A stretch of DNA of 64,000 nt from an uncultured Candidatus Rokubacteria bacterium (GTDB taxonomy: Bacteria; Methylomirabilota; Methylomirabilia; Rokubacteriales; CSP1-6). The position numbers were made by a program, and so were the translations under genes. Every line of letters starts with the position of its first letter. The first letter of the stretch is position 1. The DNA lies in NCBI GenBank assembly GCA_963771355.1, contig CAVYTA010000004.1, forward strand, positions 224,001-288,000, written 5' to 3'. Of the stretch, positions 16,570 through 41,052 are shown one piece after another. The notes below the pieces were generated by a model. It was not told the origin of the DNA. It saw only the letters and a list, made by a program, of their open reading frames with translations, and ran no database searches.

Positions 16570-16637
16570 ATCTACACCCCGTCCTCAACCGCGGCCCCGC
16601 CGGCGTCCGCAGCCCCGCCGACCGCATAGGCCTCTGA
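16570..16637 (+). pseudogene. intI: C-terminal remnant of an integron integrase
   Basis: atc tac acc c-c gtc ctc aac cgc ggc ccc gcc ggc gtc cgc agc ccc gcc gac cgc = IYT(H, 1-nt deletion)VLNRGPAGVRSPADRIGL*, matching the IntI-type terminus IYTHVLNRG..GVRSP.D; no upstream integrase sequence recognisable. Confidence 0.85.
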
Positions 16638-16663
16638 CCCTTCCCCCATGCCCGCAGTCTCCG

Positions 16664-16811
16664 CCGCGCTACACTGGTCCGCCTATCCCCGCCCGCCCCA
16701 CCCCCAGAGTCCAGCCAACTACGCACCACCTGGGCTATCCTTGAAGATAAGGAGACCACCCCAGCGATGCTACACAGCCCCCCTCGCTCGGTCCCCCGCG
16801 CTACACAGACC
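16664..16811 (+). repeat. Direct repeats upstream of attI
   Basis: CCGCGCTACACTGGTCC (16664-16680), ATGCTACACAGCCC (16767-16780), CCGCGCTACACAGACC (16796-16811). Confidence 0.65.
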
Positions 16812-16830
16812 AAGATAATTCTAGTTGGGC
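16811..16830 (+). other. Putative attI site (crossover G|TT at 16824/16825)
   Basis: CAAGATAATTCTAGTTGGGC; no attC hairpin upstream; downstream GTTGGGCGG(G)CT is the reverse complement of AGCCGCCCAAC at the end of cassette 1. Confidence 0.75.
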
Positions 16831-16879
16831 GGGCTATGAGCAAGGCTGGCGATGGTCTCGTGCACGTAAGGCAGCGTAT

Positions 16880-17854
16880 ATGACAGTTTGTCGGCTGGTC
16901 GTCGCGTTGTTGCTGCTTCTCCTCCCGTGTTCCGCCGGAGCCCAGCAAGCCACGAGGATTCCACGCATTGGCGTTCTCAGCCCGGCGCCGATCGGGGCGG
17001 CCTCGGCGTCCCCGTTCTCCGCCCTTCGGGACAAGCTGCGTGAGCTTGGTTACATCGAGGGCCAGAATATAGCGCTGGAGTTCCGCCTCGCAGATGGTCA
17101 CCTCAACCGGTTGCCCGAACTCGCCGCAGATCTCGTCCGCCTACGAGTCGACGTCATCGTGACCGACGGTGGGGATTCCGTGGCTCGTGTCGCTGCGGCT
17201 GCCACCAAGACCATTCCGATCGTGATGGGGACCTCGACTGATCCCGTGGCGAGTGGCCTGGTGGCCAGCATCGCCCAGCCAGGCGGCAACGTCACCGGAT
17301 TCATGCTCCCGTACGCGGACCTCGCAGGAAGACGGTTGCAGCTCCTCAAGGAGATGGTCCCAACCGTCAGCCGCGTAGCTGTCTTGTGGGATGCGGACTC
17401 CGGCGAGCCCCAGCTCCGTGCCGCGGCTGCCGCAGCACCGGCGCTCGGCCTCCACCTCGAGTCCCTGCCGGTGCGCGACCGCGCAGATCTCGACACCGCG
17501 TTCGAAAAGGCCCGTCGCCAGGGCGCCGGGGCCCTGCTGCAGTTGGCCTCGCGGCGGCTGTCCGACAACAGGAAGGCGATCGCCGAACGCGTGCTCAGAT
17601 ATCGACTTCCCGGTGTGTTCGAGCTCGGATTCGCCGAAACTGGTGTCCTCGCCTCCTATGGACCGAGGACCGCGGACAACTTCAGCCGGGCCGCCCTCTA
17701 CGTCGACAGGATCCTGAAGGGCGCGCGCCCCGGCGACCTTCCGGTGCAGTATCCCCTCACGTACTACCTGGAGATCAATCTCCGAACCGCCAAATCTCTC
17801 GGGCTCACGATGCCGCCCTCGGTACTGCTGCAGGCAACGCGGGTCATCGAGTGA
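16880..17854 (+). CDS. Orphan ABC transporter substrate-binding protein (ABC_sub_bind type), cassette 1
   Basis: Signal peptide; LRELGYIEGQN, LPELAADLVRL.VDVIV, DPVASGLVASIAQPGGNVTG, YVDRILKGARPGDLPV, INLRTAKSLGL. Confidence 0.9.
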   Translation: MTVCRLVVALLLLLLPCSAGAQQATRIPRIGVLSPAPIGAASASPFSALRDKLRELGYIEGQNIALEFRLADGHLNRLPELAADLVRLRVDVIVTDGGDSVARVAAAATKTIPIVMGTSTDPVASGLVASIAQPGGNVTGFMLPYADLAGRRLQLLKEMVPTVSRVAVLWDADSGEPQLRAAAAAAPALGLHLESLPVRDRADLDTAFEKARRQGAGALLQLASRRLSDNRKAIAERVLRYRLPGVFELGFAETGVLASYGPRTADNFSRAALYVDRILKGARPGDLPVQYPLTYYLEINLRTAKSLGLTMPPSVLLQATRVIE

Positions 17855-17897
17855 CGCCGCCGTGAAGGGTGTGCCGAGCCAATGCGACGAATCAGCC

Positions 17898-17955
17898 GCC
17901 CAACTCCTGCATTCAGCCGACGCGCTATCGCGCGCGGCTGATGCGGGCGTTGGAC
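17898..17955 (+). other. attC site 1
   Basis: GCCCAAC tcc TGCATTCA GCCGACGCGC tatc GCGCGCGGC TGATGCG ggc GTTGGAC; imperfect palindrome with two extrahelical bases. Confidence 0.9.
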
Positions 17956-17976
17956 GACAACAATAGGTAAACAACG

Positions 17977-18603
17977 TTGAAGCTCCCACCCTTGCCAATC
18001 TTGTCCGACCTGGACGGCACGCTGATTGATTCGAAGGCCTCTGTGGTTGCCGCCTTCCGGTGGTGGGCGGAATCGAAAGGTCTTCCTGCCGATACCGCCT
18101 CGCGCATTCCGTTTGGAAGAACATCAACGGACGCGGCGGCGGTACTTGCGCCACACCTAGATCACATCAAGGAAGGCGCCCTACTTGATCAACGGCAGGA
18201 GCAAGACACCGCCGGCGTCATTGCGCTGGACGGCGCAAGCGAACTCCTTTCATCGCACGACAACTTGGCCATCGTTACGTCCTGTCCACGCCGTCTTGCG
18301 GAAGCTCGGCTGAAAGCAGCGAAGCTACCGACGCCTCGCTTCCTCATCACGCCGGAATGCTGGTCTCGCGGCAAGCCTGACCCTGAGCCCTACTTGCGAG
18401 GAGCGCAGGCGCTTGGTACTGCACCTGAGGCGTGCATCGTGCTGGAGGATGCGCCGTCCGGGGTTGAATCTGGAGTCAGGGCAGGAATGCGAGTCATAGG
18501 AATACTTACAACTCACACGGCGCAGCAACTCTCGGCCGCAACGTGCCTCATCAAGTCCCTGCGTGAGCTTCCAGATGCTTTGCGGTCCGTAAGCAATCAG
18601 TGA
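17977..18603 (+). CDS. HAD-family sugar-phosphatase-like hydrolase (cassette)
   Basis: DLDGTLIDS, IVTS, GKPDPEPY, EDAPSG. Confidence 0.9.
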   Translation: MKLPPLPILSDLDGTLIDSKASVVAAFRWWAESKGLPADTASRIPFGRTSTDAAAVLAPHLDHIKEGALLDQRQEQDTAGVIALDGASELLSSHDNLAIVTSCPRRLAEARLKAAKLPTPRFLITPECWSRGKPDPEPYLRGAQALGTAPEACIVLEDAPSGVESGVRAGMRVIGILTTHTAQQLSAATCLIKSLRELPDALRSVSNQ

Positions 18604-18610
18604 AGTTGTC

Positions 18611-18706
18611 GTCCAACCCATCGCTGCAGCGGACGGTCCCGCCTTCGGCGGTCCTTCCCTCCGCGCGCTTCGCGCGCGTCGGCGCCGCTGAGCTTAGTCG
18701 TTAGGC
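18611..18706 (+). other. attC site 2
   Basis: GTCCAAC..GCTGCAGCGG...CCGCTGAGC..GTTAGGC with two internal TTC-loop hairpins. Confidence 0.9.
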
Positions 18707-18709
18707 GTC

Positions 18710-19009
18710 ATGACGCCAATTACTCCAGCAGTCTCGCAGAAGATCGATGCACTCTTTCTGCCAGAGAGCAGAGACGCAGCGCGGCGACTGCTCGCGGAGC
18801 GGTGCGGGACTGACCTTCCCCTTTCGACTCACATGGGACCCGATCCTTCCGGCTTTGACCGCGTTCGCTTTGCAGTCCTGAAGCTGTCACGCGGGGACTT
18901 GGAGCGGCTGCGGCGAGAGATAGAGGGCGCGCACTGCGACTGGCGTGACACTTTGATGGCGGCTGGGTTCGGCGAGGACATTCATGCACATTTGCAATGG
19001 AACCCTTGA
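18710..19009 (+). CDS. Hypothetical protein (cassette)
   Basis: ORF fills the space between attC2 and attC3; RVRFAVLKLS.GD...DWRDTLMAAGF. Confidence 0.75.
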   Translation: MTPITPAVSQKIDALFLPESRDAARRLLAERCGTDLPLSTHMGPDPSGFDRVRFAVLKLSRGDLERLRREIEGAHCDWRDTLMAAGFGEDIHAHLQWNP

Positions 19010-19010
19010 T

Positions 19011-19102
19011 GCCTAACCATGCGCTCAGCGAACCCGGCCATCGCGCTCTGGTGGCAATCCACGCCTCCCGTGGGCCGGGTCGCTGAGCTTGGGTCGTTAG
19101 GC
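19011..19102 (+). other. attC site 3
   Basis: GCCTAAC..GCTCAGCGAACCCGGCC...GGCCGGGTCGCTGAGC..GTTAGGC. Confidence 0.9.
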
Positions 19103-19122
19103 GCAACAACGAGGAGACTTGC

Positions 19123-19527
19123 ATGTCGCAGGAAGAGAACAAAGCGATCGTGCGGCGATTCTTCGAGGAAGCGTGGAATCAGCAGAACTTGAACGTCATC
19201 GATGAGATCTTCGCTCCGACCGTAGTGTTCAACGGGCAGCCGATCACTCGCGACGCGCTCAAGCAGGCTCTCGCAGGTCGCCGTACCGCGTTCCCCGATA
19301 TCCAGGTTACGGTTGACGATCAGATCGCCGAGGGCGAGAAGGTGTCGACACGCCGGACGTGGCAAGCCACTCACCGGGGTCAGTATCGCGGGATTGCCCC
19401 GACTGGTAAGCAGGTGAAATGGACCCAGATCAGTGTCGTTCGATTTTCCCAGGGCCGGATCGTGGAGGATTGGGCCGTCGCCGACGAGTTGGGCATACTG
19501 CAGCAGCTGGGAGCGTTGCCCACGTGA
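19123..19527 (+). CDS. SnoaL-like ester cyclase (cassette)
   Basis: EENKAIVRRF, AFPD, IAEGEKV, GIAPTGK, LGILQQLG. Confidence 0.9.
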   Translation: MSQEENKAIVRRFFEEAWNQQNLNVIDEIFAPTVVFNGQPITRDALKQALAGRRTAFPDIQVTVDDQIAEGEKVSTRRTWQATHRGQYRGIAPTGKQVKWTQISVVRFSQGRIVEDWAVADELGILQQLGALPT

Positions 19528-19559
19528 CGAGTGCTTGCGAAGGACGCGGCAGCCTCGGT

Positions 19560-19630
19560 GTCCAACACAGCAGTGCAGCGGACGGCGCGCTCACGTTGCT
19601 CGCCCGCCGCCGCTGACCGCAGCGTTAGGC
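19560..19630 (+). other. attC site 4
   Basis: GTCCAAC..GTGCAGCGGACGGCG..CTCACGTTGCTCG..CGCCGCCGCTGAC..GTTAGGC. Confidence 0.88.
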
Positions 19631-19655
19631 CGACTCGCCCGATTTCGCAGACTTG

Positions 19656-19904
19656 ATGAGCACTCAAGAGGGGCTCCGTGTCATTGCCACGCTCATCGGC
19701 GGTGGCTTCCTCGCATACGCTGCTATAGCCGTCTTTAGAGGAACGCTGTATGACGTGGACGACGGGCATGTCGACCGGGCTACACGGCCAGTCACTTTCT
19801 GGCTGTTAGTGTTCGGCATGACCCTCCTCGGGTTAGTTATCCTGGGTGTCGGCTGGGAGTGGCCGATCGTGGGCACCATAGTCCGGACGATGGGCACCTC
19901 CTGA
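19656..19904 (+). CDS. Small two-TM membrane protein (cassette)
   Basis: Two hydrophobic helices; lies between attC4 and attC5. Confidence 0.65.
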   Translation: MSTQEGLRVIATLIGGGFLAYAAIAVFRGTLYDVDDGHVDRATRPVTFWLLVFGMTLLGLVILGVGWEWPIVGTIVRTMGTS

Positions 19905-19940
19905 CCAAGGTTGTCCATGCCACAACCTGAAGCGCATCGT

Positions 19941-20042
19941 GCCTAACAACGTGGGTGCAGAGGACACCGGGCGCGCCACGGTTTGGCGAATCTTCTGGGA
20001 TGCGGCGCCGCCCCCGGCGCCTCTGACCTACCTTCGTTAGAC
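19941..20042 (+). other. attC site 5
   Basis: GCCTAAC..GGTGCAGAGGACACCGGG...CCCGGCGCCTCTGACC..GTTAGAC. Confidence 0.85.
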
Positions 20043-20059
20043 GGATAGAGGAAGAGAGA

Positions 20060-20626
20060 GTGTGGCGACCGAGTAGACTGGGCAGCATCATCGCGGAACG
20101 TCGGCTGAGGCTAGTGCGGCGCCGGAAACGGGCCCGCACTGTCCGCGTCAGATTCGGTCGCCCGCTCAGGTCCCCACAAGCCGAACGTAAGGATCCGTGG
20201 TGGTGCCCCGTCGAAATCGCCGGCTTGGGCAGGCGTAGGCTGAGGTCGATTGCCGGTGAAGATTCCCTCCAAGCGCTTGTCCTGGCGTTCCAGTTCGTCA
20301 CTCTCACTCTCCCTGCGGAGGCAGAGCGTGCTGGTGGCCGTATCGAATGGCTGGGCGAACGTGAGAGTCTGGTGTTTGCACACACGCGCTTGCTCAACAT
20401 GGCGAGCGACGCCTTAGAGAATCTCGCGAGTGGGCTCACGGAGGCGGTCGGCATTCTGGAGAATGGCGGAGCCCGTCGTCCCGGCGCGAGGGCGGTTGTT
20501 CGCCGGTTGAGGGCGCTCATTGCGTCAGGTGGCTACACCTCCGATCATCGGCGTGTCTCGGCACCGTCCAACAGCGCGTTGGAGGCGGACGCGCCGCGAC
20601 GGCGCTCCACTCAACGCGGACGTTAA
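20060..20626 (+). CDS. DUF6968-like protein (cassette); ORF reads through attC6
   Basis: WWCPVEIAGLG...IAGEDSLQALVLA; stop TAA lies within the attC R' box. Confidence 0.65.
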   Translation: MWRPSRLGSIIAERRLRLVRRRKRARTVRVRFGRPLRSPQAERKDPWWCPVEIAGLGRRRLRSIAGEDSLQALVLAFQFVTLTLPAEAERAGGRIEWLGERESLVFAHTRLLNMASDALENLASGLTEAVGILENGGARRPGARAVVRRLRALIASGGYTSDHRRVSAPSNSALEADAPRRRSTQRGR

Positions 20627-20628
20627 GC
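20566..20628 (+). other. attC site 6
   Basis: GTCCAAC AGCGCGTTGGAGGCGGACGCGCCG cga CGGCGCTCCACTCAACGCGGAC GTTAAGC. Confidence 0.85.
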
Positions 20629-20646
20629 GTCAATCTGGATCGAGGT

Positions 20647-21315
20647 GTGAAGATGACACGAATACGAGTCGAGAGTTTTGCCATCTCACTTGACGGATAC
20701 GGAGCTGGTCCGAATCAAGACATCAATAATCCGCTTGGTGCGGGCGGGACTGAGTTGCACCAATGGGCATTTCCGACGCGCACATTCCAGCGGAAACTCT
20801 TTGGCGCCGACAGCGGCGCTACGGGGATCAATGACGACTTCGCCGCACGTGGCTTCAGGAACGTCGGTGCATGGATTCTCGGAAGGAACATGTTCGGACC
20901 GGTTCGCGGAGCCTGGCCGGACATGAACTGGAAAGGTTGGTGGGGGGACAATCCGCCATACCATGTTCCAGTCTTCGTCCTGACTCATCACGCCCGCCCG
21001 CCTATTCAGATGGAAGGCGATACCACGTTCCATTTCGTCACGGACGGCATTCACGAAGCGCTGGATCGGGCGCGGAAGGCAGCCAACGGGATGGATGTGC
21101 GCATTGGCGGTGGGCCCCACACCATACAGCAGTACCTTCGTGCTGGCCTCGTGGATGAGTTGCATATCGCTATCGCGCCCATCCTGCTAGGTGGAGGAGA
21201 GCGACTGTTCGAGGGAGTCGACTTGCGATCTCTTGGATACAGCTGCGTCGAGCACGTGCCCTCAGAGAAGGCAACCCATGTTGTGCTCCGGCGCCGGGGT
21301 CAGAGTGACGCCTAA
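20647..21315 (+). CDS. Dihydrofolate reductase / RibD C-terminal family protein (cassette)
   Basis: ISLDGYGAGP, ILGRNMF, PVFVLTHH, VRIGGG, GLVDELHIAIAPILLGGGERLF. Confidence 0.9.
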   Translation: MKMTRIRVESFAISLDGYGAGPNQDINNPLGAGGTELHQWAFPTRTFQRKLFGADSGATGINDDFAARGFRNVGAWILGRNMFGPVRGAWPDMNWKGWWGDNPPYHVPVFVLTHHARPPIQMEGDTTFHFVTDGIHEALDRARKAANGMDVRIGGGPHTIQQYLRAGLVDELHIAIAPILLGGGERLFEGVDLRSLGYSCVEHVPSEKATHVVLRRRGQSDA

Positions 21316-21371
21316 CAACCGGTTGCACGGAGGGCGCTCCGCGCCGCCGCTGAGTGGGGGGTCGGTGAGGC
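21310..21371 (+). other. attC site 7 (degenerate R' GTGAGGC)
   Basis: GCCTAAC AACCGGTTGCAC...CCGCTGAG...GTGAGGC. Confidence 0.65.
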
Positions 21372-21394
21372 GAGAAGGAACGGCGAGAGGAGTC

Positions 21395-22384
21395 GTGTCA
21401 GGGTCCTGGGTCGGGCCCTTCGTTCTCGCCCTTTTGATGCTGGCCGTCCCCCTCGCCGTAGGAGCGCAGCCGACGGGGAAGGTGGCCCGCATCGGCATCT
21501 TCGGGGACAAGGCGGCGGACGCCTCCGAGAAGCATCTCTGGCAGGTCTTCCGCGACGGCCTGCGCGAGCACGGATGGTCCGAGGGCGCCAACCTCGCCAT
21601 CGAATACCGGTGGGCCGAGGGTAATGCCGCGCGGCTTCCGGAGCTGGCGGCGCAGCTGGTCCGGCTCAAGCCGGATGTGATCGTGACGCGGGGCTCGCTG
21701 TTCACCGGCGCCCTGAAGGCCGCGACATCCTCCATTCCCATCGTGTTCGTCGGCCACGCGGATCCTGTGGAGACCGGCCACGTCGCGAGCCTCGCCAGGC
21801 CGGGCGGAAACATCACCGGGATGGCGGTGCTCCAGACCGAGCTCGGCCCCAAGGGCCTAGAGCTCCTGCACGCCGTCGTCCCCTCGGCCACGCGTGTCGC
21901 CGTGCTGTGGCACCAGGGCACTCCGTCAGCCGTGCCCGGGCTCAAGGCGCTGGAGGGTCCAGCGCGAACGCTCGGCCTCAAGCTGCAGCCCGTCGGGGCG
22001 CGGAGCGCCGGTGAGCTGGAAAGCGCCTTCGCGACCATGGCCAAAGCTGGCGCGGAAGCCGCGCTGGTCTTCAACACCGTCCCGTTCAACAACGCGAGGG
22101 GGCGCATCGTGGAGCTAGCCGGCGCGCATCGGCTGCCGACGATGTACCAGGGAAGGCTCTTCATAGAGGCCGGCGGTCTGATGAGCTACTACCCGAAACA
22201 CGAGGACTTCTGGCGGCGTTCCGCCGCGTACGCGGACAAGATCCTCAGGGGCGCGAAGCCGGCCGACCTCCCGGTCGAGCAGCCGACGAAGTTCGAGCTG
22301 ATCATCAATCTCAAGACCGCCAAAGCGCTTGGCCTCACGATCCCGCAACCGGTGTTGGCTCGCGCCGATGAGGTCATCGAATGA
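21395..22384 (+). CDS. Orphan ABC substrate-binding protein, paralog 2 (cassette)
   Basis: Same family motifs as 16880-17854 (ASLARPGGNITG, YADKILRGAKPADLPVEQPTKFELIINLKTAKALG, RADEVIE). Confidence 0.9.
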   Translation: MSGSWVGPFVLALLMLAVPLAVGAQPTGKVARIGIFGDKAADASEKHLWQVFRDGLREHGWSEGANLAIEYRWAEGNAARLPELAAQLVRLKPDVIVTRGSLFTGALKAATSSIPIVFVGHADPVETGHVASLARPGGNITGMAVLQTELGPKGLELLHAVVPSATRVAVLWHQGTPSAVPGLKALEGPARTLGLKLQPVGARSAGELESAFATMAKAGAEAALVFNTVPFNNARGRIVELAGAHRLPTMYQGRLFIEAGGLMSYYPKHEDFWRRSAAYADKILRGAKPADLPVEQPTKFELIINLKTAKALGLTIPQPVLARADEVIE

Positions 22385-22432
22385 GCGCGACCGATAAGCA
22401 TGCGATCCCAGCTTGCGTCGACATATTCGGGC

Positions 22433-22505
22433 GTCGAACTTCCCGCTGCAGCGGACCGGAGGCTCGCGTTGCTCGCCCTCCGGCCGCTGAGCGCGAGCGT
22501 TAGCC
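22433..22505 (+). other. attC site 8
   Basis: GTCGAAC..GCTGCAGCGGACCGGAGG CTCGCGTTGCTCG CCCTCCGGCCGCTGAGC..GTTAGCC. Confidence 0.88.
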
Positions 22506-22510
22506 AGCGC

Positions 22511-22837
22511 ATGGAATCATCGAACACGCTCTTCGCCGTCGTTCGCGTGCGTGGCGCGGCCTGGGAGCCGGCCCGTCAAATGCGCGAACAGCGCGCTTGG
22601 CAAGAACATGCTGCGTTCATGAATGCCCTCGCGGCCAACCGATTCATCGTCTTAGGTGGCCCGCTCGGCGACGGGCAACGCGTGCTCCTCATTGTCGAGT
22701 CAAACTCCGAGGCCACGGTTTGCAGTCGCCTTGCACTCGATCCTTGGTCAACAATGGACCTCTTGCGCATTGAGAGCGTCCATCCGTGGAGAGTTCTTCT
22801 TGACCGCAATTCCACGAATCAGCCGCATGGTGGCTAA
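22511..22837 (+). CDS. YciI-like protein (cassette)
   Basis: EHAAFMNAL, LGGPLGDG, LALDPW. Confidence 0.75.
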   Translation: MESSNTLFAVVRVRGAAWEPARQMREQRAWQEHAAFMNALAANRFIVLGGPLGDGQRVLLIVESNSEATVCSRLALDPWSTMDLLRIESVHPWRVLLDRNSTNQPHGG

Positions 22838-22910
22838 CCCTTCGTTACACCCGACCTCGCTACGGCTGGCTTCGCCAACCTCCGCGAGCGGGTGAACTCA
22901 AACGTTGGGT
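22832..22910 (+). other. attC site 9
   Basis: GGCTAAC CCTTC GTTACACCCGACCTCGC...GCGAGCGGGTGAAC TCAAAC GTTGGGT. Confidence 0.9.
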
Positions 22911-22963
22911 CTCAACCGTCAGGAGCGTCGCGCTGCGACCAATCTGCGACTGAAAGGCGCCGA

Positions 22964-23566
22964 TTGCCGAAAGCAAAAACTCTCCTGCTGATCGCACTCT
23001 GCCTCGCGCTCGCCGGCGCGGCACGCGCGGAGGACTGGTCGGCGTGGCAGCGCGCCCACGATCCGGCGACGCGCACGCGCTTCATTCCCGTGGAACTCTG
23101 GACCGGCGCGCCTTGGGACGGCACGCAGGAGATCCGCATGGCGCCCGCGGCGCTCGAGTTCGGGCGGCAGGGAGACAAGAGCATCAAGGGGCCGACGACC
23201 TGGAACGGTATCCAGGTCTACGAGCGCCTGAACCGCGACAAGCTCCAGCTCTTCGCCATCCGCGACGACCGGACGGGCCTCGGTCGCGTTTTCGACTCGC
23301 GCTATCCGCAGCTCGGCTGCCGCGGCGAGGTGAAATTTCCGCTCGGCCGCTGGAAGCAGGGCGAGGTGCGCGAGTACCAGCTCGACTGCGCGCGCGGTAA
23401 GCGCCCGCTCAGAGTGGCGATCGAGGAGATCGACTTCGTCTACGACGGCGTGCCACACTCGCTGCGCTTCCACTGGCTCTTCATGGAAGGGCGCGGCCGC
23501 GGCACCGATATGCGCTACGTGTATAGCCCGCTGCGCGGGCTGGTCGACGTGCAGGGGAACGAGTAG
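22964..23566 (+). CDS. Secreted hypothetical protein (cassette); start uncertain
   Basis: Signal peptide LLLIALCLALAGAARA; RFIPVELWTG, KFPLG.W. Confidence 0.7.
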   Translation: MPKAKTLLLIALCLALAGAARAEDWSAWQRAHDPATRTRFIPVELWTGAPWDGTQEIRMAPAALEFGRQGDKSIKGPTTWNGIQVYERLNRDKLQLFAIRDDRTGLGRVFDSRYPQLGCRGEVKFPLGRWKQGEVREYQLDCARGKRPLRVAIEEIDFVYDGVPHSLRFHWLFMEGRGRGTDMRYVYSPLRGLVDVQGNE

Positions 23567-23586
23567 GCATAGGGGTTCGAAAGTCA

Positions 23587-23675
23587 GCCTAACAACTGAT
23601 TGGAGCGGGCGGCGTTGATGGATGGATGGTCAAGTCGAGATGCTGACAGCGCCGCCGCTGAGTGCAACACTAGGA
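23587..23675 (+). other. attC site 10 (R' mutated to ACTAGGA)
   Basis: GCCTAAC..TTGGAGCGGGCGGCG...CGCCGCCGCTGAG.. Confidence 0.65.
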
Positions 23676-23687
23676 CTCGGAGGAGAA

Positions 23688-24137: not shown

Positions 24138-24172
24138 CTGTCTTCAAGAACTTAGCGGAGCGCTGGGATGCC

Positions 24173-24223: not shown

Positions 24224-24312
24224 CGCAAATCATTCTTCTCAACCCCATCAACACTAGGCTACCTATCAGAGTCATTGCTGCTGCACTATCCCTCTCCACG
24301 GTCGCGTGCGCC

Positions 24313-25951: not shown

Positions 25952-25957
25952 GGACGG

Positions 25958-33632: not shown

Positions 33633-34291
33633 GCGATGACGAGGTTGACCAGACATGGGTCTCGCGCGAGGCCGCCGTGTGTAGTTCGAGGGCGCGGAAG
33701 GCTTTGGTCGCGGCTTTTGTCGCTCTGCTCATAGCGAGCCTGGCGGCGGCTGGCGTCGCCGACGCGGCCGCCGGACCGGGGCGCCCCAGTCTTCCCCAAG
33801 TTCCCTATGAGGACCACGGTGCGTGTCCCTTCGAGTGCTGCACCTATCGGACGTGGACGGTCAAAGCCGATACACCGGTCCGCACGGATCGCCGGGACAC
33901 CGCCCCGGTGGCCTTTCGTGTCCGTCCGGGCGAGCAGGTAAATGGTCTCACGGGCGTCGTGGTCACGAGGAAGCTGGGTAGGGCCACGATCCGGGAGCCG
34001 ATAGTCGTCGAGACGGACAAGCTCGCGCTTGAACCCGGTGAAGCAGTGTCCGTCGTCAACTACATCGGCGAGGGAGTGTGGAAGATCTGGGCGCGGGGAC
34101 GACTTTACCACCTTGAGATCGCGAGCAAGGAGCACACCTGCGCTGGGCACGCCCGAACACCCGGTCCATGTGCCGCCCAGATCGTCGAGGAACCGGAGAC
34201 CGTGTGGTGGGCGAAGGTACGCAACCGCGGTGGGCAGGAAGGTTGGACGCGACAGCTGGATCACTTCGGTCAGATCGACGCTTGCGGCTAG
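33629..34291 (+). CDS. Secreted hypothetical protein (SH3-like beta protein)
   Basis: GACPFECCTY..W, YIGEG..KIW, WWAKVRN..GQEGW, DACG. Confidence 0.7.
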   Translation: MSDDEVDQTWVSREAAVCSSRARKALVAAFVALLIASLAAAGVADAAAGPGRPSLPQVPYEDHGACPFECCTYRTWTVKADTPVRTDRRDTAPVAFRVRPGEQVNGLTGVVVTRKLGRATIREPIVVETDKLALEPGEAVSVVNYIGEGVWKIWARGRLYHLEIASKEHTCAGHARTPGPCAAQIVEEPETVWWAKVRNRGGQEGWTRQLDHFGQIDACG

Positions 34292-34358
34292 ATCCCGTGC
34301 TCGCAAGGGCTGAACCACGGTGGGACAGAGGACTTCGAGAGGGCATGGGCGGTCGTCG

Positions 34359-34796
34359 ATGCTGAACCTGTTCGGCTTCCTGGCGGTGGGGTGCTGCGGC
34401 TTGTTCGCCGGCGCCGCGCTCTACGTCAACCTGGTCGAGCATCCGGCTCGAATGAGCTGCGGCGTGGACCTTGCGCTCCGTGAGTGGGCGCCCAGCTACA
34501 AGCGTGCCTCGGTCATGCAGGCGTCCCTTGCCGTGATCGGCGGCGTGGCCGGCGTGTTGGCGTGGGCGCTCCTGGGCGGTCTCGGCTACCTCGTCGGGGC
34601 TCTCCTCCTGCTGGCGGTGGTGCCGTTCACACTTCTCGTCGTCTTCCCGACAAACAAGCGCCTCCTGGAGCTCCATGCCGAAGGTCAGATTGGTAACGCG
34701 CGCGAGCTGCTCAAGCGGTGGAACGCGCTTCACGCGGTACGGACCGCATTGAGCGTGGTGGCATTCGTCTTGATGCTGCGTGCGCTCAGGGGGTAG
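34359..34796 (+). CDS. DUF1772 (anthrone oxygenase-like) membrane protein
   Basis: GLFAGAALYVNLVEHPAR, PTNKRL, WNALHAVRT. Confidence 0.85.
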   Translation: MLNLFGFLAVGCCGLFAGAALYVNLVEHPARMSCGVDLALREWAPSYKRASVMQASLAVIGGVAGVLAWALLGGLGYLVGALLLLAVVPFTLLVVFPTNKRLLELHAEGQIGNARELLKRWNALHAVRTALSVVAFVLMLRALRG

Positions 34797-34973
34797 ATGC
34801 CAAGTCGGCACCGCCCCCGTCCCCGGCGCGCGATGGTCGCTGGTGTTATGGTTTGTGATGATGATTGCCCGCTGACGCGACTCTTGTGACGATGCGGGGC
34901 TCGTCAACCTGCAAACCTCTTCACGCCTGGTGGCCGAGCTTCGCGGTTGGCGCGACGGATAGAGGAGAAACAC

Positions 34974-35507
34974 ATGGCCGAGCCCCTGAAGGCACTGAAC
35001 CTGAAACGCTGGATCGACGAACACCGTCACCTGTTGAAGCCTCCGGTAGGGGCTGAGGTGATCTGGAAGGACTCCCAGTTCATGGTCATGCTCATCGGGG
35101 GCCCGAACGCGCGCCGAGACTTCCACATCGACCCGCGCGATGAGTTCTTTTACCAGCTTGAAGGCGACATGATCCTGGAGCTCATCGACGAAAGAGGCAA
35201 GAGACAGCGGGAGAAGATCCGGGAGGGAGACGTACTTCTGTTACCGGCCAATACTCCTCATTCTCCACAGCGGCCGGCGAACACGGTGGGCTTGGTGGTG
35301 GAGCCCGTCCGAGGCCCGCATGAACCTGAAAGCTACGCCTGGTACTGTGAGCAGTGCGACGCCAAGCTGTACGACATGTCCAGGGGGGAGGGCGACCTCC
35401 TGCTGGACCTGCGAAGGGTGTCGGAGAAGTTCAATGCGAGTGAAGCGCTTCGAACATGCAGGCCCTGCGGTTACGTGCAGCCGGTGGCGACGGGCCCCCG
35501 CTTGTAG
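34974..35507 (+). CDS. nbaC: 3-hydroxyanthranilate 3,4-dioxygenase
   Basis: LLKPPVG, GGPNARRDFH, EFFYQLEGDM, PHSPQR, rubredoxin-like CxxC pairs. Confidence 0.9.
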   Translation: MAEPLKALNLKRWIDEHRHLLKPPVGAEVIWKDSQFMVMLIGGPNARRDFHIDPRDEFFYQLEGDMILELIDERGKRQREKIREGDVLLLPANTPHSPQRPANTVGLVVEPVRGPHEPESYAWYCEQCDAKLYDMSRGEGDLLLDLRRVSEKFNASEALRTCRPCGYVQPVATGPRL

Positions 35508-35580
35508 TTCGAATGGTCCCGTCGCCCTTGTCGCGAACTCTCGCGGCGGTTCGACAACATCATTCTGGGGAGGAACAGCC

Positions 35581-35880
35581 ATGATCATGCGGATCACGTG
35601 GGGCAAGCTCCGGCCCGGCTCATGGAACGAGTTCGAGAGGACGTACAAGGCGACGGTGGCCGCCAAGGGGGGCACCAGCAAAGGCCTGCGTGGACGGTGG
35701 CTCATGCAGGACACGGCCGATGCGGATACGGGGTTCGCGGTCAGCCTGTGGGAAAACGCGGCGGAGATGCAGGCCTACGAGAAGAGCGATCTCTACCAGA
35801 AGGAGTTCGCGCCCGCCCTCCAGCCGTTCTTCGTCGGGGAGTACAAGACCTATCGCTGTGAGGTCAAGTACATGCAATAG
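35581..35880 (+). CDS. Antibiotic biosynthesis monooxygenase (ABM)-like protein
   Basis: MIMRITWGKLRPGSW...SLWE; GGAGG RBS. Confidence 0.75.
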   Translation: MIMRITWGKLRPGSWNEFERTYKATVAAKGGTSKGLRGRWLMQDTADADTGFAVSLWENAAEMQAYEKSDLYQKEFAPALQPFFVGEYKTYRCEVKYMQ

Positions 35881-35908
35881 CCCGCGCATGGCGGCGCGGT
35901 CGCACACG

Positions 35909-36022
35909 CCCAGGGCCCGGGGGGTCCTCGATACCGATCTGACCGGGAAGAACGCGAGCTTCTCGAATGCGACGATCTTCGTCGGTCTCGTGGAGTGGGC
36001 CGACAAAGTCCTCACGGAATAG
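35909..36022 (+). pseudogene. 3' fragment of a DsrE-like protein
   Basis: ARGVLDTDLTGKNASF...LVEWADKVLTE* resembles a DsrE/F C-terminus; 5' part missing. Confidence 0.5.
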
Positions 36023-36084
36023 TAGCGCGGTCAACCGGACCTACCGGCGAGCCACCGGCAACACCTCGAAAGGAGCACGGGCCG

Positions 36085-36498
36085 ATGCCGCTGCAGGACA
36101 TGTACCCCGTCATCGTCACGCCCCAGCACAAGGAGTGCCGGGACTTCTATGCGCGCTGGTTCGAAGCCGCCGTCGTGTTCGAGGCGTCGTGGTTTGTCCT
36201 TCTGGCATTGCCCGGCGATCCGCCGCGGACGGTGGCCTTCATGGCCCCCGACCATCCCTCCTCGCCTCCAGGCCCCGAAACCTTCAACGGCACGGGTCTC
36301 TTCCTCACGTTCCAGGTCTCGGATGCGGCCGCGGAGTACGCGCGGCTCGAGCAGGGGGGCGCGACGTTTGTCTACGCGTTGCGAGACGAACCGTGGGGCC
36401 AGCGTCGCTTCGCACTGCGGGATCCGTCGGGTTGCTGGGTTGATGTGGTGGAGCAAACGGAGCCGGCGCCGGGCTTCTGGGATCCCTATGTCTCGTAG
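36085..36498 (+). CDS. VOC/glyoxalase family protein
   Basis: RDFY, LRDEPWGQRRFALRDPSG. Confidence 0.88.
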   Translation: MPLQDMYPVIVTPQHKECRDFYARWFEAAVVFEASWFVLLALPGDPPRTVAFMAPDHPSSPPGPETFNGTGLFLTFQVSDAAAEYARLEQGGATFVYALRDEPWGQRRFALRDPSGCWVDVVEQTEPAPGFWDPYVS

Positions 36499-36514
36499 CG
36501 CCGCGCCCTGAGCG

Positions 36515-36994
36515 GTGAACCCCTCGGCTCCCGACCACCCCGCGAACACCGGCCTGCGTCGCCACTGCCAGGCGCAGGCTCAGCGATCGGGCATGCCGCC
36601 GCTCGCCTCTCCCGATGAGGTCGTGCGACCGTACGAGACGCTGGGCACGCATCCTGATCTGGTCGCCCGACTCTGGGACGAGCTCCCGGCCGAGCTGCCC
36701 GTGGATTGTCGAGTGGTCTTCTACGGCATGCCCGTCTTGATGCACCCCACGACGGGCATCGTGTTCGGCTTCGCGGGCGGCACCCACACCTACGCGCTCC
36801 GACTTCCCGAGCGGGAACGGGCGGAAGCGCTCCAAGCCGGCGCCACCCGGATCAAGCACTACCGTTCGGTCCAGATCAGCTTCGATCTCGACGACATCGG
36901 GCCAGAGTGGGTATTTTGCGGGTGGTTCAAGGGCGAGGAAGCGTGGTGTCGTTCGGCGTTCGAGAGCGCGGGTTCTCAAGGGAGCAGAGTATGA
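36515..36994 (+). CDS. Hypothetical protein
   Basis: LGTHPDLVARLW...FAGGTHTYALRLP. Confidence 0.7.
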   Translation: MNPSAPDHPANTGLRRHCQAQAQRSGMPPLASPDEVVRPYETLGTHPDLVARLWDELPAELPVDCRVVFYGMPVLMHPTTGIVFGFAGGTHTYALRLPERERAEALQAGATRIKHYRSVQISFDLDDIGPEWVFCGWFKGEEAWCRSAFESAGSQGSRV

Positions 36995-37054
36995 AGACCA
37001 CCTCGAGCCCTGGCGGCTGAAGCGGGACGGGTGCGGTCGAGAGGCCGTCGCGCC

Positions 37055-37612
37055 ATGGAGCTGGTCTGGCCTTCCCCGCAGCACCTCGAAAGCTATGTCG
37101 CCGCCCTCGAGCGCGGCTGGTCGCCCGACAACGTTCGCGGTGAGACGGCCGCGCGCGAGGAGCTGAGGTCGATCGCCACCGACCCCGCCGCATTCCTCGC
37201 CGGTCTGGTGGACCGTGAGGCAAAGGGCTCGCCCATCACCCTTCCCGACGGCTCGAGGGTCCCACGCCTTCCCGGGTATCGTCGTTGGATGTGGGATGGT
37301 GAGTTCTGCGGGAGCATCGGCTTTCGCTGGCAGCCCGGGACCCCGGCGCTCCCGCCACATTGCCTGGGGCACGTAGGATACGCGGTCGTTCCTTGGAAGC
37401 AGGGAAGAGGGTATGCAACACTCGCGCTCAGGCTATTGCTGCCAGAGGCCCGCGCGGAGGGGTTGCCGTTCATCGAGCTCACCACCGACCCGACGAACAT
37501 GGCCTCTCAGCGAGTCATCCGGGCCAATGGTGGTGTTCTGGTCGAACGCTTCACAACGCCCGCCCAGCTCGGGGCGACTGAGACCCTCCGGTTCAGAATC
37601 ACGCTGTCATGA
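37055..37612 (+). CDS. GNAT family N-acetyltransferase
   Basis: GHVGYAVVPWKQGRGYAT, N.ASQRVI..NGG. Confidence 0.88.
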   Translation: MELVWPSPQHLESYVAALERGWSPDNVRGETAAREELRSIATDPAAFLAGLVDREAKGSPITLPDGSRVPRLPGYRRWMWDGEFCGSIGFRWQPGTPALPPHCLGHVGYAVVPWKQGRGYATLALRLLLPEARAEGLPFIELTTDPTNMASQRVIRANGGVLVERFTTPAQLGATETLRFRITLS

Positions 37613-37622
37613 AAGGGGGGAC

Positions 37623-38621
37623 ATGACAAGAAGGTTGCCGGTCATGCGGAGGCTCCGGGTATTCGTGGCCATCGTGCTCGGCCTCCTCTGCGTGCCCTCT
37701 CCGTCCGAGGCTCAGCGGTCCGCCGGGATCGCCCGGATCGGCTACCTCACCCCCACCTCGCAGCCGGCGCGTGAGGAAGTGTTCCGCCAGGAGCTGCGCC
37801 GGCTCGGCTACGCCGAGGGCCAGAATTTTGTCCTGGAGTACCGGTCGGCAAATGGGGACTTCGACCGGCTGCCGGACCTCGCGGCGGAGCTGATCGCGCT
37901 CAACGTGGACGTCCTGGTCACGGTGGTGACTCAGGCCGCTCTGGCGGCAAAGAAGGCGACGGCCACGATCCCCATCGTCATGGTGGGCGTGTCCGACCCC
38001 GTCGGGGTCGGGCTGGTCGCGAGCCTCGCGCGACCGGGCGGCAATGTCACGGGAACGTCGTCCCTGGCGGCCAATGTGGTGGGAAAGCAGCTCGAGTCAT
38101 TGCGAGAGATGCTGCCCAAGGTCTCCCGGGTGGCCACCCTCTGGAACCCGGCGAATCCTGTGTTCCAGAAGCTCCAGCTGGGAGAGGTCAAGGCGGCCGC
38201 CGCGAAGCTGCGGCTGCAGATCCAGCTCTTCGAGGCCCGGACCCCCGACCGGCTGGATCACGCCTTCACGTCGATGGCGAGGCAACGCCCGGAGGCGCTC
38301 CTTGTCCTGGGGGATCCGATGTTCGGCGCGCACTGGGCGCGGATTGCCGAGCTGGCCGCCCGGCACCGCATGCCGACGGTGAGCGGGACGCGAGAGTTCG
38401 CGGACGCCGGTGGCCTCATGACCTATGGACCGGACTACTTCGAGGCGTACCAGCGGGCCGGCCGGTACGTGGACCAGATCCTGAGGGGCGGCCGGCCGGC
38501 CGACCTTCCCGTCGAACAGTCCACCAAGTTCGAGCTGGTCATCAATGCCCGGACGGCGGCGACGCTCGGGATCACCATCCCACGGTCGCTGGTCGGGCGC
38601 GCCGACCGGGTGGTGGAGTGA
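37623..38621 (+). CDS. Orphan ABC substrate-binding protein, paralog 3
   Basis: LRRLGYAEGQN, DPVGVGLVASLARPGGNVTG, PADLPVEQSTKFELVIN, RADRVVE. Confidence 0.9.
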   Translation: MTRRLPVMRRLRVFVAIVLGLLCVPSPSEAQRSAGIARIGYLTPTSQPAREEVFRQELRRLGYAEGQNFVLEYRSANGDFDRLPDLAAELIALNVDVLVTVVTQAALAAKKATATIPIVMVGVSDPVGVGLVASLARPGGNVTGTSSLAANVVGKQLESLREMLPKVSRVATLWNPANPVFQKLQLGEVKAAAAKLRLQIQLFEARTPDRLDHAFTSMARQRPEALLVLGDPMFGAHWARIAELAARHRMPTVSGTREFADAGGLMTYGPDYFEAYQRAGRYVDQILRGGRPADLPVEQSTKFELVINARTAATLGITIPRSLVGRADRVVE

Positions 38622-39559
38622 CGGCGCTGAGGCCGTTTCGCTTCGGCGTGAACGTGTGGGGCGCTGGATCCCGGGGCGAGTGGATCGACAAGGCCCGGAA
38701 GATCGAGGCGCTGGGCTACTCCATCCTGACGGTGCCGGATCACCTGGGGGAGTTCTTCGCGCCCATGCCGGCGCTGGTGAGCGCGGCGCAGGCAACAACG
38801 CATCTTCGCGTGGGCACGAACGTGCTCAACAACGATTTCCGGCATCCCGTGGTCGTGGCGCGCGAGGCGGCCACCGCCGACGTCTTGACCGATGGCCGGC
38901 TGCAGCTCGGCCTGGGCGCCGGCCACATGAGGTCGGAATACGACGAGGCCGGACTGCGCTTCGAGGCCGGGGCCACCAGGGTCGAGCGGCTGGCGGAGGC
39001 GGTCGCCATCGTCAAGGGCCTGCTCGGGGGTGAGGCGGTCACCTCCACCGGGCGGCACTACCGAGTGACCGGGCACACGGTCTACCCGCTTCCCGTCCAG
39101 CGCCCCCGCCCTCCCATCCTCATCGGCGGCAATGGCCGGCGCCTCCTCACCCTCGCGGCGAAGGAAGCCGACATCGTCGGGCTGTCGGGGATCACGTTCC
39201 GGAGCGGTGGGGTCGAGCGGGACCTGTCCGGCTGGCGCACCGTGGGCGTCGACGAGCGGATCCAGCTCATCCGGGAGGCGGCCGGCGACCGCTACGCGCA
39301 GCTCGAGCTGAACGCGCTGGTCCAGCGCGTCGTGGTGACCGACGATCGCCGCCGGGCTGCCGAGGAGCTCGCGCGGCGCTGGACGCCGCTGAGCCCGGCC
39401 GAGATCCTGTCGAGCCCGTACGTCCTGGTGGGAACGATCGACGAGCAGGTCGAGGATCTTCAAGCGCGCAGGGCACGGTGGGGTCTCTCCTACTACGTCA
39501 TCTTCGAGCCGTACGTGGACGCTTTCGCTCCCGTCGTCGCCCGGCTCGCGGGGAGATAG
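38618..39559 (+). CDS. LLM-class (probable F420-dependent) oxidoreductase
   Basis: RPFRFGV, PDHL, NNDFRHP, GRLQLGLGAG, PPILIGGNG. Confidence 0.88.
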   Translation: MTALRPFRFGVNVWGAGSRGEWIDKARKIEALGYSILTVPDHLGEFFAPMPALVSAAQATTHLRVGTNVLNNDFRHPVVVAREAATADVLTDGRLQLGLGAGHMRSEYDEAGLRFEAGATRVERLAEAVAIVKGLLGGEAVTSTGRHYRVTGHTVYPLPVQRPRPPILIGGNGRRLLTLAAKEADIVGLSGITFRSGGVERDLSGWRTVGVDERIQLIREAAGDRYAQLELNALVQRVVVTDDRRRAAEELARRWTPLSPAEILSSPYVLVGTIDEQVEDLQARRARWGLSYYVIFEPYVDAFAPVVARLAGR

Positions 39560-40000
39560 ATGAAAATCGCGATTGGCTCCGATCACGCCGGATTCCGCTA
39601 CAAGGAGATTCTCAAGTCCGCCCTCGCCGCGCGCGGGCACGAGGTGCGCGACTTCGGTACCAGCTCGTCGATGCCCGTCGACTATCCCCTGTTCATCCGG
39701 CCGGTGGCCTTGGGAGTCGCGCGGGGTGAGTTCGAACGGGGGCTCGTGCTGGGGGGGTCGGGCAATGGGGAGGCGATCGTCGCCAACCGGGTCCGCGGCA
39801 TCCGGTGCACGATCGGGTGGAACGTCGAGTCCGTGCGCCTCGGGCGCGCGCACAACGACTCGAACGTCTTGTCGCTGGGGGAGCGGTTCGTCGCGGAGGG
39901 GGACCTCCTGGCCATGCTGGACATGTGGCTGACCACGCCCTTCGAAGGCGGGCGTCACCAGAGACGAATCGAGCTCATCGACGCGGGGGATGGCGCCTAG
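39560..40000 (+). CDS. rpiB: Ribose-5-phosphate isomerase B
   Basis: MKIAIGSDHAG, VDYP, GSGNGE, HND.NV, FEGGRH.RR. Confidence 0.92.
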   Translation: MKIAIGSDHAGFRYKEILKSALAARGHEVRDFGTSSSMPVDYPLFIRPVALGVARGEFERGLVLGGSGNGEAIVANRVRGIRCTIGWNVESVRLGRAHNDSNVLSLGERFVAEGDLLAMLDMWLTTPFEGGRHQRRIELIDAGDGA

Positions 40001-40007
40001 CCTGCCG

Positions 40008-40157
40008 GTGGCCGCCGTGATCACCGCGGCCCGCGGCACGTTTGACACGCTCCGGCTGCGGACGGAGAATCCGACCGCGGCGCGCCTCTACGAGCGGATG
40101 GGGTTTCGCCGCTGCGTCGAGGCCGACGACAGCACGCATGTCATGGAGCTAGCGTGA
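40008..40157 (+). pseudogene. 3' fragment of a GNAT acetyltransferase
   Basis: VITAARGTFDTLRLRTENPTAARLYERMGFRR...THVMELA*. Confidence 0.65.
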
Positions 40158-40173
40158 GTTGCCTGGAGGGCAG

Positions 40174-40542
40174 ATGCAGATCACGGGCGTCATTCCCCAG
40201 CTACGGACGACCGATCTGGCGGCCTCGATCCGGTTCTACACCACCAAGCTCGGCTTGACGCTCGAATTCCAGTACGAGGACTTCTACGCCGGCATCCGAG
40301 CGGGGAACCAGGTCTTCCACCTCAAGCTCTCGGACGAGAAGGACCCGTCGATCGCGTTCGTGGACCAGGAGGAGCACTTTCACCTCTACTTCGAGACCGA
40401 CGATGCCGCCGCGGTGGTGGCCGGATTGAAGAAGAACGGAGTGCCGCTGGTGAAGGAGCTGCACGAGACGCCCTGGGAGACGCGGGAGTTCGCGGTCAAG
40501 GACGATCAGGGGCACACGCTCTACTTCGGGGAGCGGCGCTAG
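40174..40542 (+). CDS. VOC/glyoxalase family protein
   Basis: DLAASIRFY, TPWETREFAVKDDQG. Confidence 0.88.
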   Translation: MQITGVIPQLRTTDLAASIRFYTTKLGLTLEFQYEDFYAGIRAGNQVFHLKLSDEKDPSIAFVDQEEHFHLYFETDDAAAVVAGLKKNGVPLVKELHETPWETREFAVKDDQGHTLYFGERR

Positions 40543-40575
40543 ATTCCCACCGGCGGCGTCGCGGAGCCGACGGCG

Positions 40576-41052
40576 ATGACGGGACGGCGGCTATCGTCGT
40601 CGCTGACCTTTTTCTGGAAGGTTGTCCTCCCGGCGGCCTGGATCGCCGGCTTCGTGGTCTGCGCGGAGTCCGTGTTCTTCGTCTCCCGCGGGAAGGCTCC
40701 CGATCCCGGGCTCCAGTCGCTGAAATGGGCCTTCCTGCTCGTGTCCCTCGTGGGGGCGCCGGCGCTACTCTGGTTCGCCACCGGGCTCAAGCGGGTGACG
40801 CGAGATGGGCCCGATCTGCTCGTCTCGAACTACCGGCGGGAGCTGCGGATCCCGGTGGGGGAGATCCGGCATGTCTACCAGAGCTGGGCGGTGAGCCCCT
40901 GGCGCGTGGTGATCGACATGCGCGCCCCGACCGAGCTCGGCTCGACCTTCGTCTTCATCCCCCGATTCCGTGACGGGCTCACGCATCGGGCGCTCGGCGG
41001 CCAGCATCCCGTGGTCGAGGAGATCCGGGCGATGTGCGATGCGGCGCGCTAG
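40576..41052 (+). CDS. Hypothetical membrane protein
   Basis: Two TM segments, LSSSLTFFWK. Confidence 0.7.
   Translation: MTGRRLSSSLTFFWKVVLPAAWIAGFVVCAESVFFVSRGKAPDPGLQSLKWAFLLVSLVGAPALLWFATGLKRVTRDGPDLLVSNYRRELRIPVGEIRHVYQSWAVSPWRVVIDMRAPTELGSTFVFIPRFRDGLTHRALGGQHPVVEEIRAMCDAAR

What the first reader, a model, noticed from the sequence alone, without database searches (positions are those of the whole stretch)
16570..41052. Fossil inverted-orientation integron: a 22-codon intI stump heading a ~24 kb cassette array
Seen: a frameshifted IntI C-terminus (IYT-VLNRGPAGVRSPAD*), not represented in the ORF track, lies on the same strand as the cassettes. An attI-like site follows ~190 bp downstream, then about 37 co-oriented genes. 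Known: canonical integrons have intI divergent from the array with attI at its 5' side, whereas inverted-integrase integrons have it co-oriented. Inference: the integrase was deleted in place, leaving a CALIN-like array that still keeps its attI and could be served in trans.
Basis: partly seen in the sequence, partly recalled or inferred. Interest (0 to 1): 0.85.

Follow-up and report, generated by a model that had tools for sequence, protein, structure and literature searches.

The report
Integrase-deleted integron with decaying cassettes
This is a real bacterial gene-capture device (an integron) that has lost almost all of its recombinase gene but keeps its docking site and about ten recognisable captured-gene units, followed by older genes that likely were such units once; it is a known kind of genomic fossil, notable mainly because the genome holds four such orphan docking sites and no recombinase gene was found for them.

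Summary
Confirmed, with corrections. The last 23 codons of an integron integrase (16569-16637, one base missing) lie on the cassette strand, 187 bp before an attI whose crossover (G16824) is exactly complementary to the first cassette's R'' box. A same-genus genome (G002) has a full-length co-oriented intI at this site; G003 keeps different shards; contigs from three studies bridge the ~930-bp deletion. Only the first ~7 kb is a working-looking array: 8 clear and 3 damaged attC, then shards to ~31 kb, then none; GC3 rises along the 38 genes and the distal genes are shared with G002. No intI was found in this 99.8%-complete genome, so no resident enzyme serves the array, and conspecific soil populations hold the same cassettes. 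The genome has three more attI-headed, intI-less arrays. One is shared, already intI-less, by three species that have different, precisely joined first cassettes, which points to service in trans in the past. Known kind: CALIN beside an intI pseudogene, Treponema-type orientation, Xanthomonas-like decay. This scan noted orphan attI sites before in other genomes. Interest 0.42.

The parts
16204..16497 (+). DUF2277 gene, left chromosomal anchor of the integron site
   Evidence: Pfam PF10041; same position in G002, G003, G006
16498..16568 (+). 71-bp remainder where about 930 bp of intI and its upstream DNA were deleted
   Evidence: DUF2277 stop to the conserved tail is 72 nt here and 1003 nt in G002; junction bridged with 0 differences by contigs of three runs from three studies
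16569..16637 (+). intI 3' stump, 23 codons with the stop, one base missing in the His codon
16638..16799 (+). conserved non-coding leader between intI and attI, with GCTACAC repeats at 16668 and 16760; likely holds accessory integrase sites and/or the cassette promoter (inferred)
   Evidence: 70-88% identical to three other leaders in this genome; alignment of 10 leaders; no sigma-70 consensus hit
16800..16830 (+). attI simple site; crossover G|TT at 16824/16825, core GTTGGGC
   Evidence: core is the exact complement of the first cassette's R'' GCCCAAC, and the same holds at all 4 attI of this genome and at G002's intI-bearing locus; in intact relatives a GTT core sits at a like distance 3' of intI
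16825..17955 (+). cassette 1: stand-alone ABC substrate-binding protein (PF04392, 16880-17854) with attC 17898-17955
   Evidence: bottom-strand fold z -5.9
17956..20628 (+). cassettes 2-6: HAD hydrolase, unknown, SnoaL-like, unknown, DUF6968, with attC at 18611-18706, 19011-19102, 19560-19630, 19941-20042, 20566-20628
20629..22910 (+). cassettes 7-9: RibD-C (damaged attC 21310-21370, no GTT), second PF04392 (attC 22433-22505), unknown (attC 22832-22910)
22911..24228 (+). cassettes 10-11: unknown and cupin, with damaged attC at 23587-23676 and 24173-24228
   Evidence: the 22892 gene is shared with G002 (same array) and G003 (another array)
24313..30922 (+). eroded zone: 9 genes with attC shards at 25956, 26812, 28603, 29431-29494 and 30874-30922
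30926..41052 (+). distal zone: 18 small co-oriented genes (GNAT, glyoxalase, DinB, cyclase, 3-HAO, ABM, third PF04392, luciferase-like, RpiB and others) with no attC; 36084-41063 shared in order with G002; likely old cassettes (inferred)

Best explanation
This is a sedentary chromosomal integron of the co-oriented ('inverted integrase') type whose integrase gene has been deleted in place, leaving its last 23 codons, an intact attI docking site and an array that is likely frozen and decaying from its far end. How it worked (established integron biology applied to what the sequence shows): IntI bound the folded bottom strand of a cassette's attC and inserted the circle at G|TT of attI, pushing older cassettes away from attI. 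That order explains the age gradient: fresh, low-GC3, lineage-specific cassettes with intact attC next to attI; damaged and then absent attC, higher GC3 and sharing with sister species further out. Shown: stump, orientation, crossover point, deletion relative to G002, attC gradient, no intI found in the assembly, three more orphan attI arrays. Inferred: that the distal genes were cassettes; that integrase loss was favoured because it locks in useful cassettes and removes an integrase cost; that orphan platforms were served in trans while one intI survived in the lineage (locus C6:2498449 has lost intI in the same way in three species yet has different, precisely joined first cassettes); that the array is now inactive unless an integrase arrives from outside.
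For: Full-length co-oriented intI, attI and 25 attC at the same site in G002; different intI shards at the same site in G003; no attI or attC left in G006's 14-kb gene cluster there. All 13 of 19 same-order intI loci with an attC hit have it 3' of intI on the same strand. Start R' equals the complement of end R'' in 26 of 38 scorable cassettes against 3.3 in shuffles (maximum 12 in 10,000), and against 5 of 35 for a site's own R'. attC arm after 11/11, 4/10, 0/18 gene ends. GC3 rises along the array, rho 0.65, p 1e-5, n 38. TIGR02249 best 82 bits against a cut-off of 265. Same proximal cassettes in runs of four studies, e.g. a 2512-nt contig over 19797-22308 with 6 differences.
Against: G002's intI carries frameshifts, so no intact orthologue at this very site was seen; that assembly also has breaks in flanking genes, so they may be errors, which I could not settle. 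No homologue of a distal gene was found followed by an attC in the loci I hold (0 of 22 hits). Only 5 of 10 scorable window cassettes have exact end complementarity. The attI core is far better conserved among orphan sites than the rest of the leader, which a dead site would not need. One contig in one run has another gene start behind a near-identical attI (44 nt, 3 differences; may be another organism).
Confidence: 0.8

Rival explanations
1. The orphan attI sites are still live satellite platforms: they are kept by selection and reloaded whenever an integrase is present briefly (from an incoming element or a newly inserted integron that then decays).
For: Last 27 bp of the leader differ at 0-2 positions among this genome's four sites against 16-42% in the rest of the leader. 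Locus C changed cassettes after losing intI. Two platforms are new in this lineage: locus B is a 6.7-kb insertion not found in 6 congeners and already has only a 55-bp intI shard; locus D's attI was not found behind the same gene in 5 congeners. One cassette (19656) sits in another array of G003 with 3 of 49 four-fold sites different against 0.20-0.27 in flanking genes. Related intI tails occur in the same soil runs.
Against: Proximal cassettes are the same across four studies. Several sites were found through the conserved core, so its conservation is partly by selection of rows, and the pairs are not independent. G003 has lost the core at this locus. The other shared genes diverge like the flanks.
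Confidence: 0.25
2. The attI end is kept not for recombination but because it overlaps the promoter that drives the first cassettes (GATAAT at 16814-19 resembles a -10 hexamer).
For: The conserved block contains GATAAT/GATACT in 8 of 10 aligned leaders. An orphan site in G004 keeps only about 60 bp of leader in front of a gene.
Against: No consensus promoter scored. The conserved block also keeps the palindrome and the GTT. No transcript start could be mapped: only contigs were available.
Confidence: 0.35
3. The distal 10-17 kb never were cassettes but a variable gene cluster into which the integron inserted or beside which it grew.
For: No attC arm after the last 18 genes; some are tightly coupled like operons; G006 and G001 have variable gene clusters here with no attI or attC hit; one search found no distal homologue with an attC.
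Against: Shards fade gradually from 24 to 31 kb; all 38 genes are co-oriented and the first opposite gene is the syntenic right flank; GC3 is graded and below the flanks' 0.79-0.97 for most; families are typical of cassettes (recalled).
Confidence: 0.3
4. An intact intI exists in an unassembled part of this genome, so the arrays are served in trans now.
For: The assembly is in 8 contigs; 15 of 61 genomes searched have intI over the cut-off.
Against: 99.8% complete; 11 PF00589 matches, none reaching the intI cut-off; a sensitive DNA-profile search found only Xer-type genes and the two shards. Of 7 congeners only G002 reaches the cut-off.
Confidence: 0.07

Closest known systems
CALIN with a neighbouring intI pseudogene (Cury et al. 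2016, PMC4889954; passages and section 20 read)
   Same: Cluster of attC sites with no integrase gene; that paper found intI pseudogenes near 15 of 279 CALINs and half of CALINs in genomes lacking intI.
   Different: Here the attI is mapped to the base, the deletion can be dated against congeners, and the genome has four attI-headed arrays. The paper could not search for attI outside classes 1-3.
Inverted-integrase integrons of Treponema (PMC3607928, passages read) and archaeal integrons with attI downstream of intI (PMC9668308 and its preprint, passages read)
   Same: [quoted passage not shown]
   Different: Different lineage (probably Rokubacteria, inferred); integrase deleted; 187-bp leader with its own conserved motif.
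Xanthomonas ilvD-locus integrons (bioRxiv 10.1101/2025.06.18.660453, passages read; Gillings 2005 seen only as cited there)
   Same: Fixed chromosomal site, repeated lineage-specific inactivation of intI by frameshift or large deletion, frozen arrays afterwards, extra CALINs at conserved loci.
   Different: Divergent-type layout in Xanthomonas (recalled). The passages read do not describe attI at the secondary CALINs, nor cassette turnover at a site after it lost intI.
Pseudo-integrons (Nemergut et al. 2008, PMC2426708, passages read) and integrase cost (PMC3510236, passages read)
   Same: About a third of intI genes are pseudogenes; an active integrase has a fitness cost that inactivation removes.
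   Different: Here almost the whole gene is gone, in different ways at different loci and species.

Membership tests
Integron (platform) | intI gene, tyrosine recombinase with the IntI-specific domain | tested here: not met
   Only the 3' tail remains; no intI over cut-off in the genome. Met by relatives and, with frameshifts, by G002 at this site.
Integron (platform) | attI with a G|TT crossover where cassettes insert | tested here: met
   Core at 16824 is the complement of the first R''; same at all 4 sites of the genome.
Integron (platform) | attC sites: R''/L''/L'/R' boxes, bottom-strand hairpin with extrahelical bases | tested here: met
   8 clear sites with a model trained on other genomes; 6 of these 8 fold at z below -3.3, the other two at -1.2 and -2.2.
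Integron (platform) | cassette ends complementary as in the excised circle | tested here: met
   26 of 38 across three genomes, shuffle mean 3.3; 5 of 10 in the window.
Integron (platform) | Pc promoter driving cassettes | tested here: inconclusive
   No consensus hit; no start mapping possible.
Integron (platform) | IntI-mediated recombination demonstrated | not testable with these tools
   Needs a recombination assay.
CALIN | two or more attC sites in a cluster | tested here: met
CALIN | no intI gene nearby | tested here: met
   IntegronFinder itself was not available
Inverted-integrase integron | intI on the cassette strand with attI at its 3' side | tested here: met
   Stump and attC on +; G002 same site; 13 of 13 informative same-order loci.
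Inverted-integrase integron | IntI falls in the described inverted clade | not tested
   No tree built; PMC4889954 reports the group as paraphyletic.
XerC/XerD remnant | tail matches Xer better than IntI | tested here: not met
   XerD of this genome ends TTQIYTHLPSTVVRD; the stump matches IntI tails.

The most novel reading that the evidence does not exclude
In this soil lineage integrons run as a distributed system: integrase-bearing platforms land at new chromosomal sites, shed intI quickly, and leave attI-headed satellite arrays whose docking sites stay under selection and go on exchanging cassettes whenever any integrase is present in the cell; the far ends of the arrays lose their attC sites and turn captured genes into ordinary chromosomal genes. 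A genome with no integrase would then still be an integron client.
Probability: 0.3. Interest if true: 0.7.

Novelty: new member of a known kind. Interest (0 to 1): 0.42.

Why it matters
The origin of CALINs is open: Cury et al. found an integrase remnant near only about 5% of them. This locus and its congeners give a natural series from full-length gene (G002) to shards (G003, this genome) to no trace (G006), and show that the remnant can shrink below what protein profiles detect, so integrase loss may explain more CALINs than counted. It also gives a base-resolved attI for the co-oriented integron type, ready for an assay, and one locus where cassettes changed after the integrase was lost. 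I found no paper on integrons of this lineage in two searches. The element itself is of a known kind.

Tried and rejected
Rfam scan of the window: 0 matches. First fold-based attC scan was unspecific and hit both strands; replaced by a box scorer and covariance models. Model R1 matches its own training sites by construction; R2 holds no sequence of this genome, but its rows were collected and aligned with R1, so it is not fully independent. The right-arm weight matrix was built wrongly and its columns were ignored. GC3 used two wrong frames; one search replaces it. Idea that shared cassettes at 89-94% identity show recent transfer: rejected for most, since four-fold divergence equals the flanks; only gene 19656 is low, on 49 sites. 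Idea that the many PF04392 genes are all cassettes: only 5 of 34 full-length copies have a clear attC arm behind them. Assembly artefact: rejected. Expression: an RNA-run contig covers 16313-16637, but contigs cannot show strand, start or level. How new platforms insert: junctions of locus B gave no target duplication or terminal repeat that I could read; unexplained. A strict attI pattern found 5 of 159 family genomes, too genus-specific for a census. Joints had short sides and mostly lay in PF04392 paralogues; not used.
Full report
Setting. The window lies on contig C4 of a 5.5-Mb, 8-contig, about 70% GC assembly rated 99.8% complete. Runs that hold the stretch are soil and rhizosphere metagenomes. 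The organism is probably a Rokubacterium: this is inferred from a named Rokuibacteriota record whose IntI tail equals the stump at 14 of 14 residues and from the many stand-alone PF04392 genes (49 matches; link to the taxon recalled).

The stump. Bases 16569-16637 read IYT, then lack one base in the His codon, then VLNRGPAGVRSPADRIGL and a stop. The IntI of same-genus G002 ends VLNRGPAGVRSPADRMGL, 17 of 18 identical, and the DNA match (83.7%, 141 nt) runs on into the non-coding leader. The genome's XerD has another tail. A DNA profile from 8 relatives' intI, run over the whole genome, gave Xer-type genes and only two intI pieces: this one (E 1.3e-7) and a shard at C6:1214061 (E 7.7e-6). A protein family scan of the frame with the tail gave nothing, so such remnants escape ordinary profile searches.

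Deletion in place. G002 is collinear with the window at 88% up to the DUF2277 stop, then has a full-length intI on the same strand, the leader, attI and 25 attC sites (these sites were in the model's training set). The distance from the DUF2277 stop to the conserved tail is 1003 nt there and 72 nt here. G002's gene has frameshifts; that assembly also shows breaks in flanking genes, so I cannot say whether they are real. G003 has four other shards of intI at the same site and has lost the attI core, so erosion was independent. G006 has a 14-kb gene cluster between the same flanks with no attI or attC hit. The deletion and the missing base are bridged without differences by contigs from three runs of three studies; one may be the source sample.

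Orientation. 15 of 61 genomes searched have intI over the TIGR02249 cut-off. Of 19 same-order intI loci searched, 13 have an attC hit, all 3' of intI on its strand. Of 80 named loci from many phyla, 25 are co-oriented, 6 divergent and 49 without a hit. The layout is therefore normal for this integrase group, not the result of a local inversion.

attI. The crossover is G16824. Its core GTTGGGC is the exact complement of the first cassette's R'' GCCCAAC, as expected when a circle opens there. The same is true at the three other attI sites of this genome and at G002's intI locus. Over arrays of three genomes, 26 of 38 scorable cassettes have exact start-end complementarity (10,000 shuffles: mean 3.3, maximum 12); sites lacking AAC or GTT and gaps over 1.5 kb were left out. 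In the window the count is 5 of 10.

The array. 38 co-oriented genes lie between 16880 and 41052. A covariance model built from 84 sites of other genomes scores 8 window sites at 29.5-66 bits between 17895 and 22915, one damaged site at 21307 and weak ones at 23584, 24170, 29431 and 30871; the best hit outside is 17.7 bits. Six of the 8 clear sites fold at z below -3.3. An attC left arm above the 95th percentile of 150 control gene ends follows 11 of the first 11 gene ends, 4 of the next 10 and none of the last 18. GC3 rises from 0.73 to 0.82 on average (rho 0.65, p 1e-5; flanks 0.79-0.97). Genes at 36084-41063 are shared in order with G002, with four-fold divergence of 0.13-0.45 against 0.13-0.26 for most flanking genes; two middle genes are also shared; the proximal nine were not found in G002's array at 74% identity or more. 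This fits insertion at attI and ageing outward. That the distal genes were cassettes remains an inference: none of 22 homologues in the DNA I hold had an attC arm behind it.

No resident integrase. TIGR02249 scores at most 82 bits against a cut-off of 265. Pieces of the proximal cassettes occur almost unchanged in runs of four studies, among them a 2512-nt contig over 19797-22308 with 6 differences. The array looks frozen in this species. One contig shows another gene start behind a near-identical attI; it may be another organism and is weak.

Three more orphan platforms. The leader recurs at C6:1214152 (B), C6:2498626 (C) and C8:125227 (D) at 79, 70 and 88% identity, each followed by attC sites. 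B is a 6.7-kb insertion not found in 6 congeners and keeps a 55-bp intI shard. D was not found behind the same gene in 5 congeners. C is shared by G000, G002 and G003 with the same integrase-less junction in G000 and G003 and a shorter one in G002, yet their first cassettes differ and each is joined precisely at G|TT; the arrays are about 19 kb and 5 kb in G000 and G002. Precise joins need an integrase, so C was served in trans after its own was lost (inference). G003's C array also holds two genes that lie in the window's array here. The last 27 bp of the leader differ at 0-2 positions among the four sites against 16-42% in the rest; rows were partly found through this core and are not independent, and a promoter role would explain it as well.

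Comparison with what is known. CALINs, intI pseudogenes, co-oriented integrases and mobilisation of CALIN cassettes in trans are all in print (PMC4889954, passages and section 20; PMC2426708, PMC3607928, PMC9668308, 10.1101/2022.02.06.479319, PMC3510236 and 10.1101/2025.06.18.660453, passages only; no supplements read, and lists of taxa in them may include this lineage). Xanthomonas is the closest evolutionary parallel. Searches for integron with Rokubacteria (5 papers, listing only, none on its integrons by title or abstract start) and integron, CALIN, attC with Methylomirabilota (0) found no account for this lineage. Earlier notes of this scan report orphan attI sites and deleted integrases in other genomes; I read them after forming the same view and they are not independent support.

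Verdict. Real, correctly recognised, and of a known kind: a CALIN that keeps its attI and a trace of a co-oriented intI. Its value lies in the datable decay series and in the evidence for past service in trans at a sister site. Interest 0.42.

Noticed in passing
G000:C6:1214040-1220770 (L061), G000:C6:2479340-2498650 (L062), G000:C8:122960-125230 (L060): Three more attI-headed cassette arrays without intI in this genome; the first keeps a 55-bp intI shard.
   Followed up: yes
window 16880-17854, 21395-22384, 37623-38621: Stand-alone ABC substrate-binding genes (PF04392) travel as cassettes: 5 of 34 full-length copies in the genome are followed by a clear attC arm; most of the others are not.
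   Followed up: partly
window 16524-16637: The frameshift puts the IntI tail in frame with an upstream ATG preceded by AAGGGA, giving a 37-residue ORF; probably chance.
   Followed up: no
window 28431-28580 and 40020-40158: Gene shards inside the array: a 49-codon internally deleted SnoaL-like piece resembling cassette 4, and a short acetyltransferase-like tail (by eye).
   Followed up: no
L057:7465-7490: G003's first attC at locus C has collapsed to R'' and R' five bases apart, a deletion of the whole stem.
   Followed up: no
L191:1400-2010 and L193: An intI 3' fragment with attI directly behind a tRNA gene in G002, and an orphan attI behind a tRNA-like fragment in G102; integrative elements at tRNAs may be one route by which platforms arrive.
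   Followed up: no
L195:1420-1700: Orphan attI with a very short leader in G004, in front of a gene that looks like a molybdopterin oxidoreductase (by eye).
   Followed up: no
L189 (G006:C13:234899-240012): A cluster of 6 attC hits in G006 with no intI or attI match upstream.
   Followed up: partly
G000:C5:1000224-1000285: A lone attC-like hit (31 bits) near PF04392 fragments, away from the four arrays.
   Followed up: no
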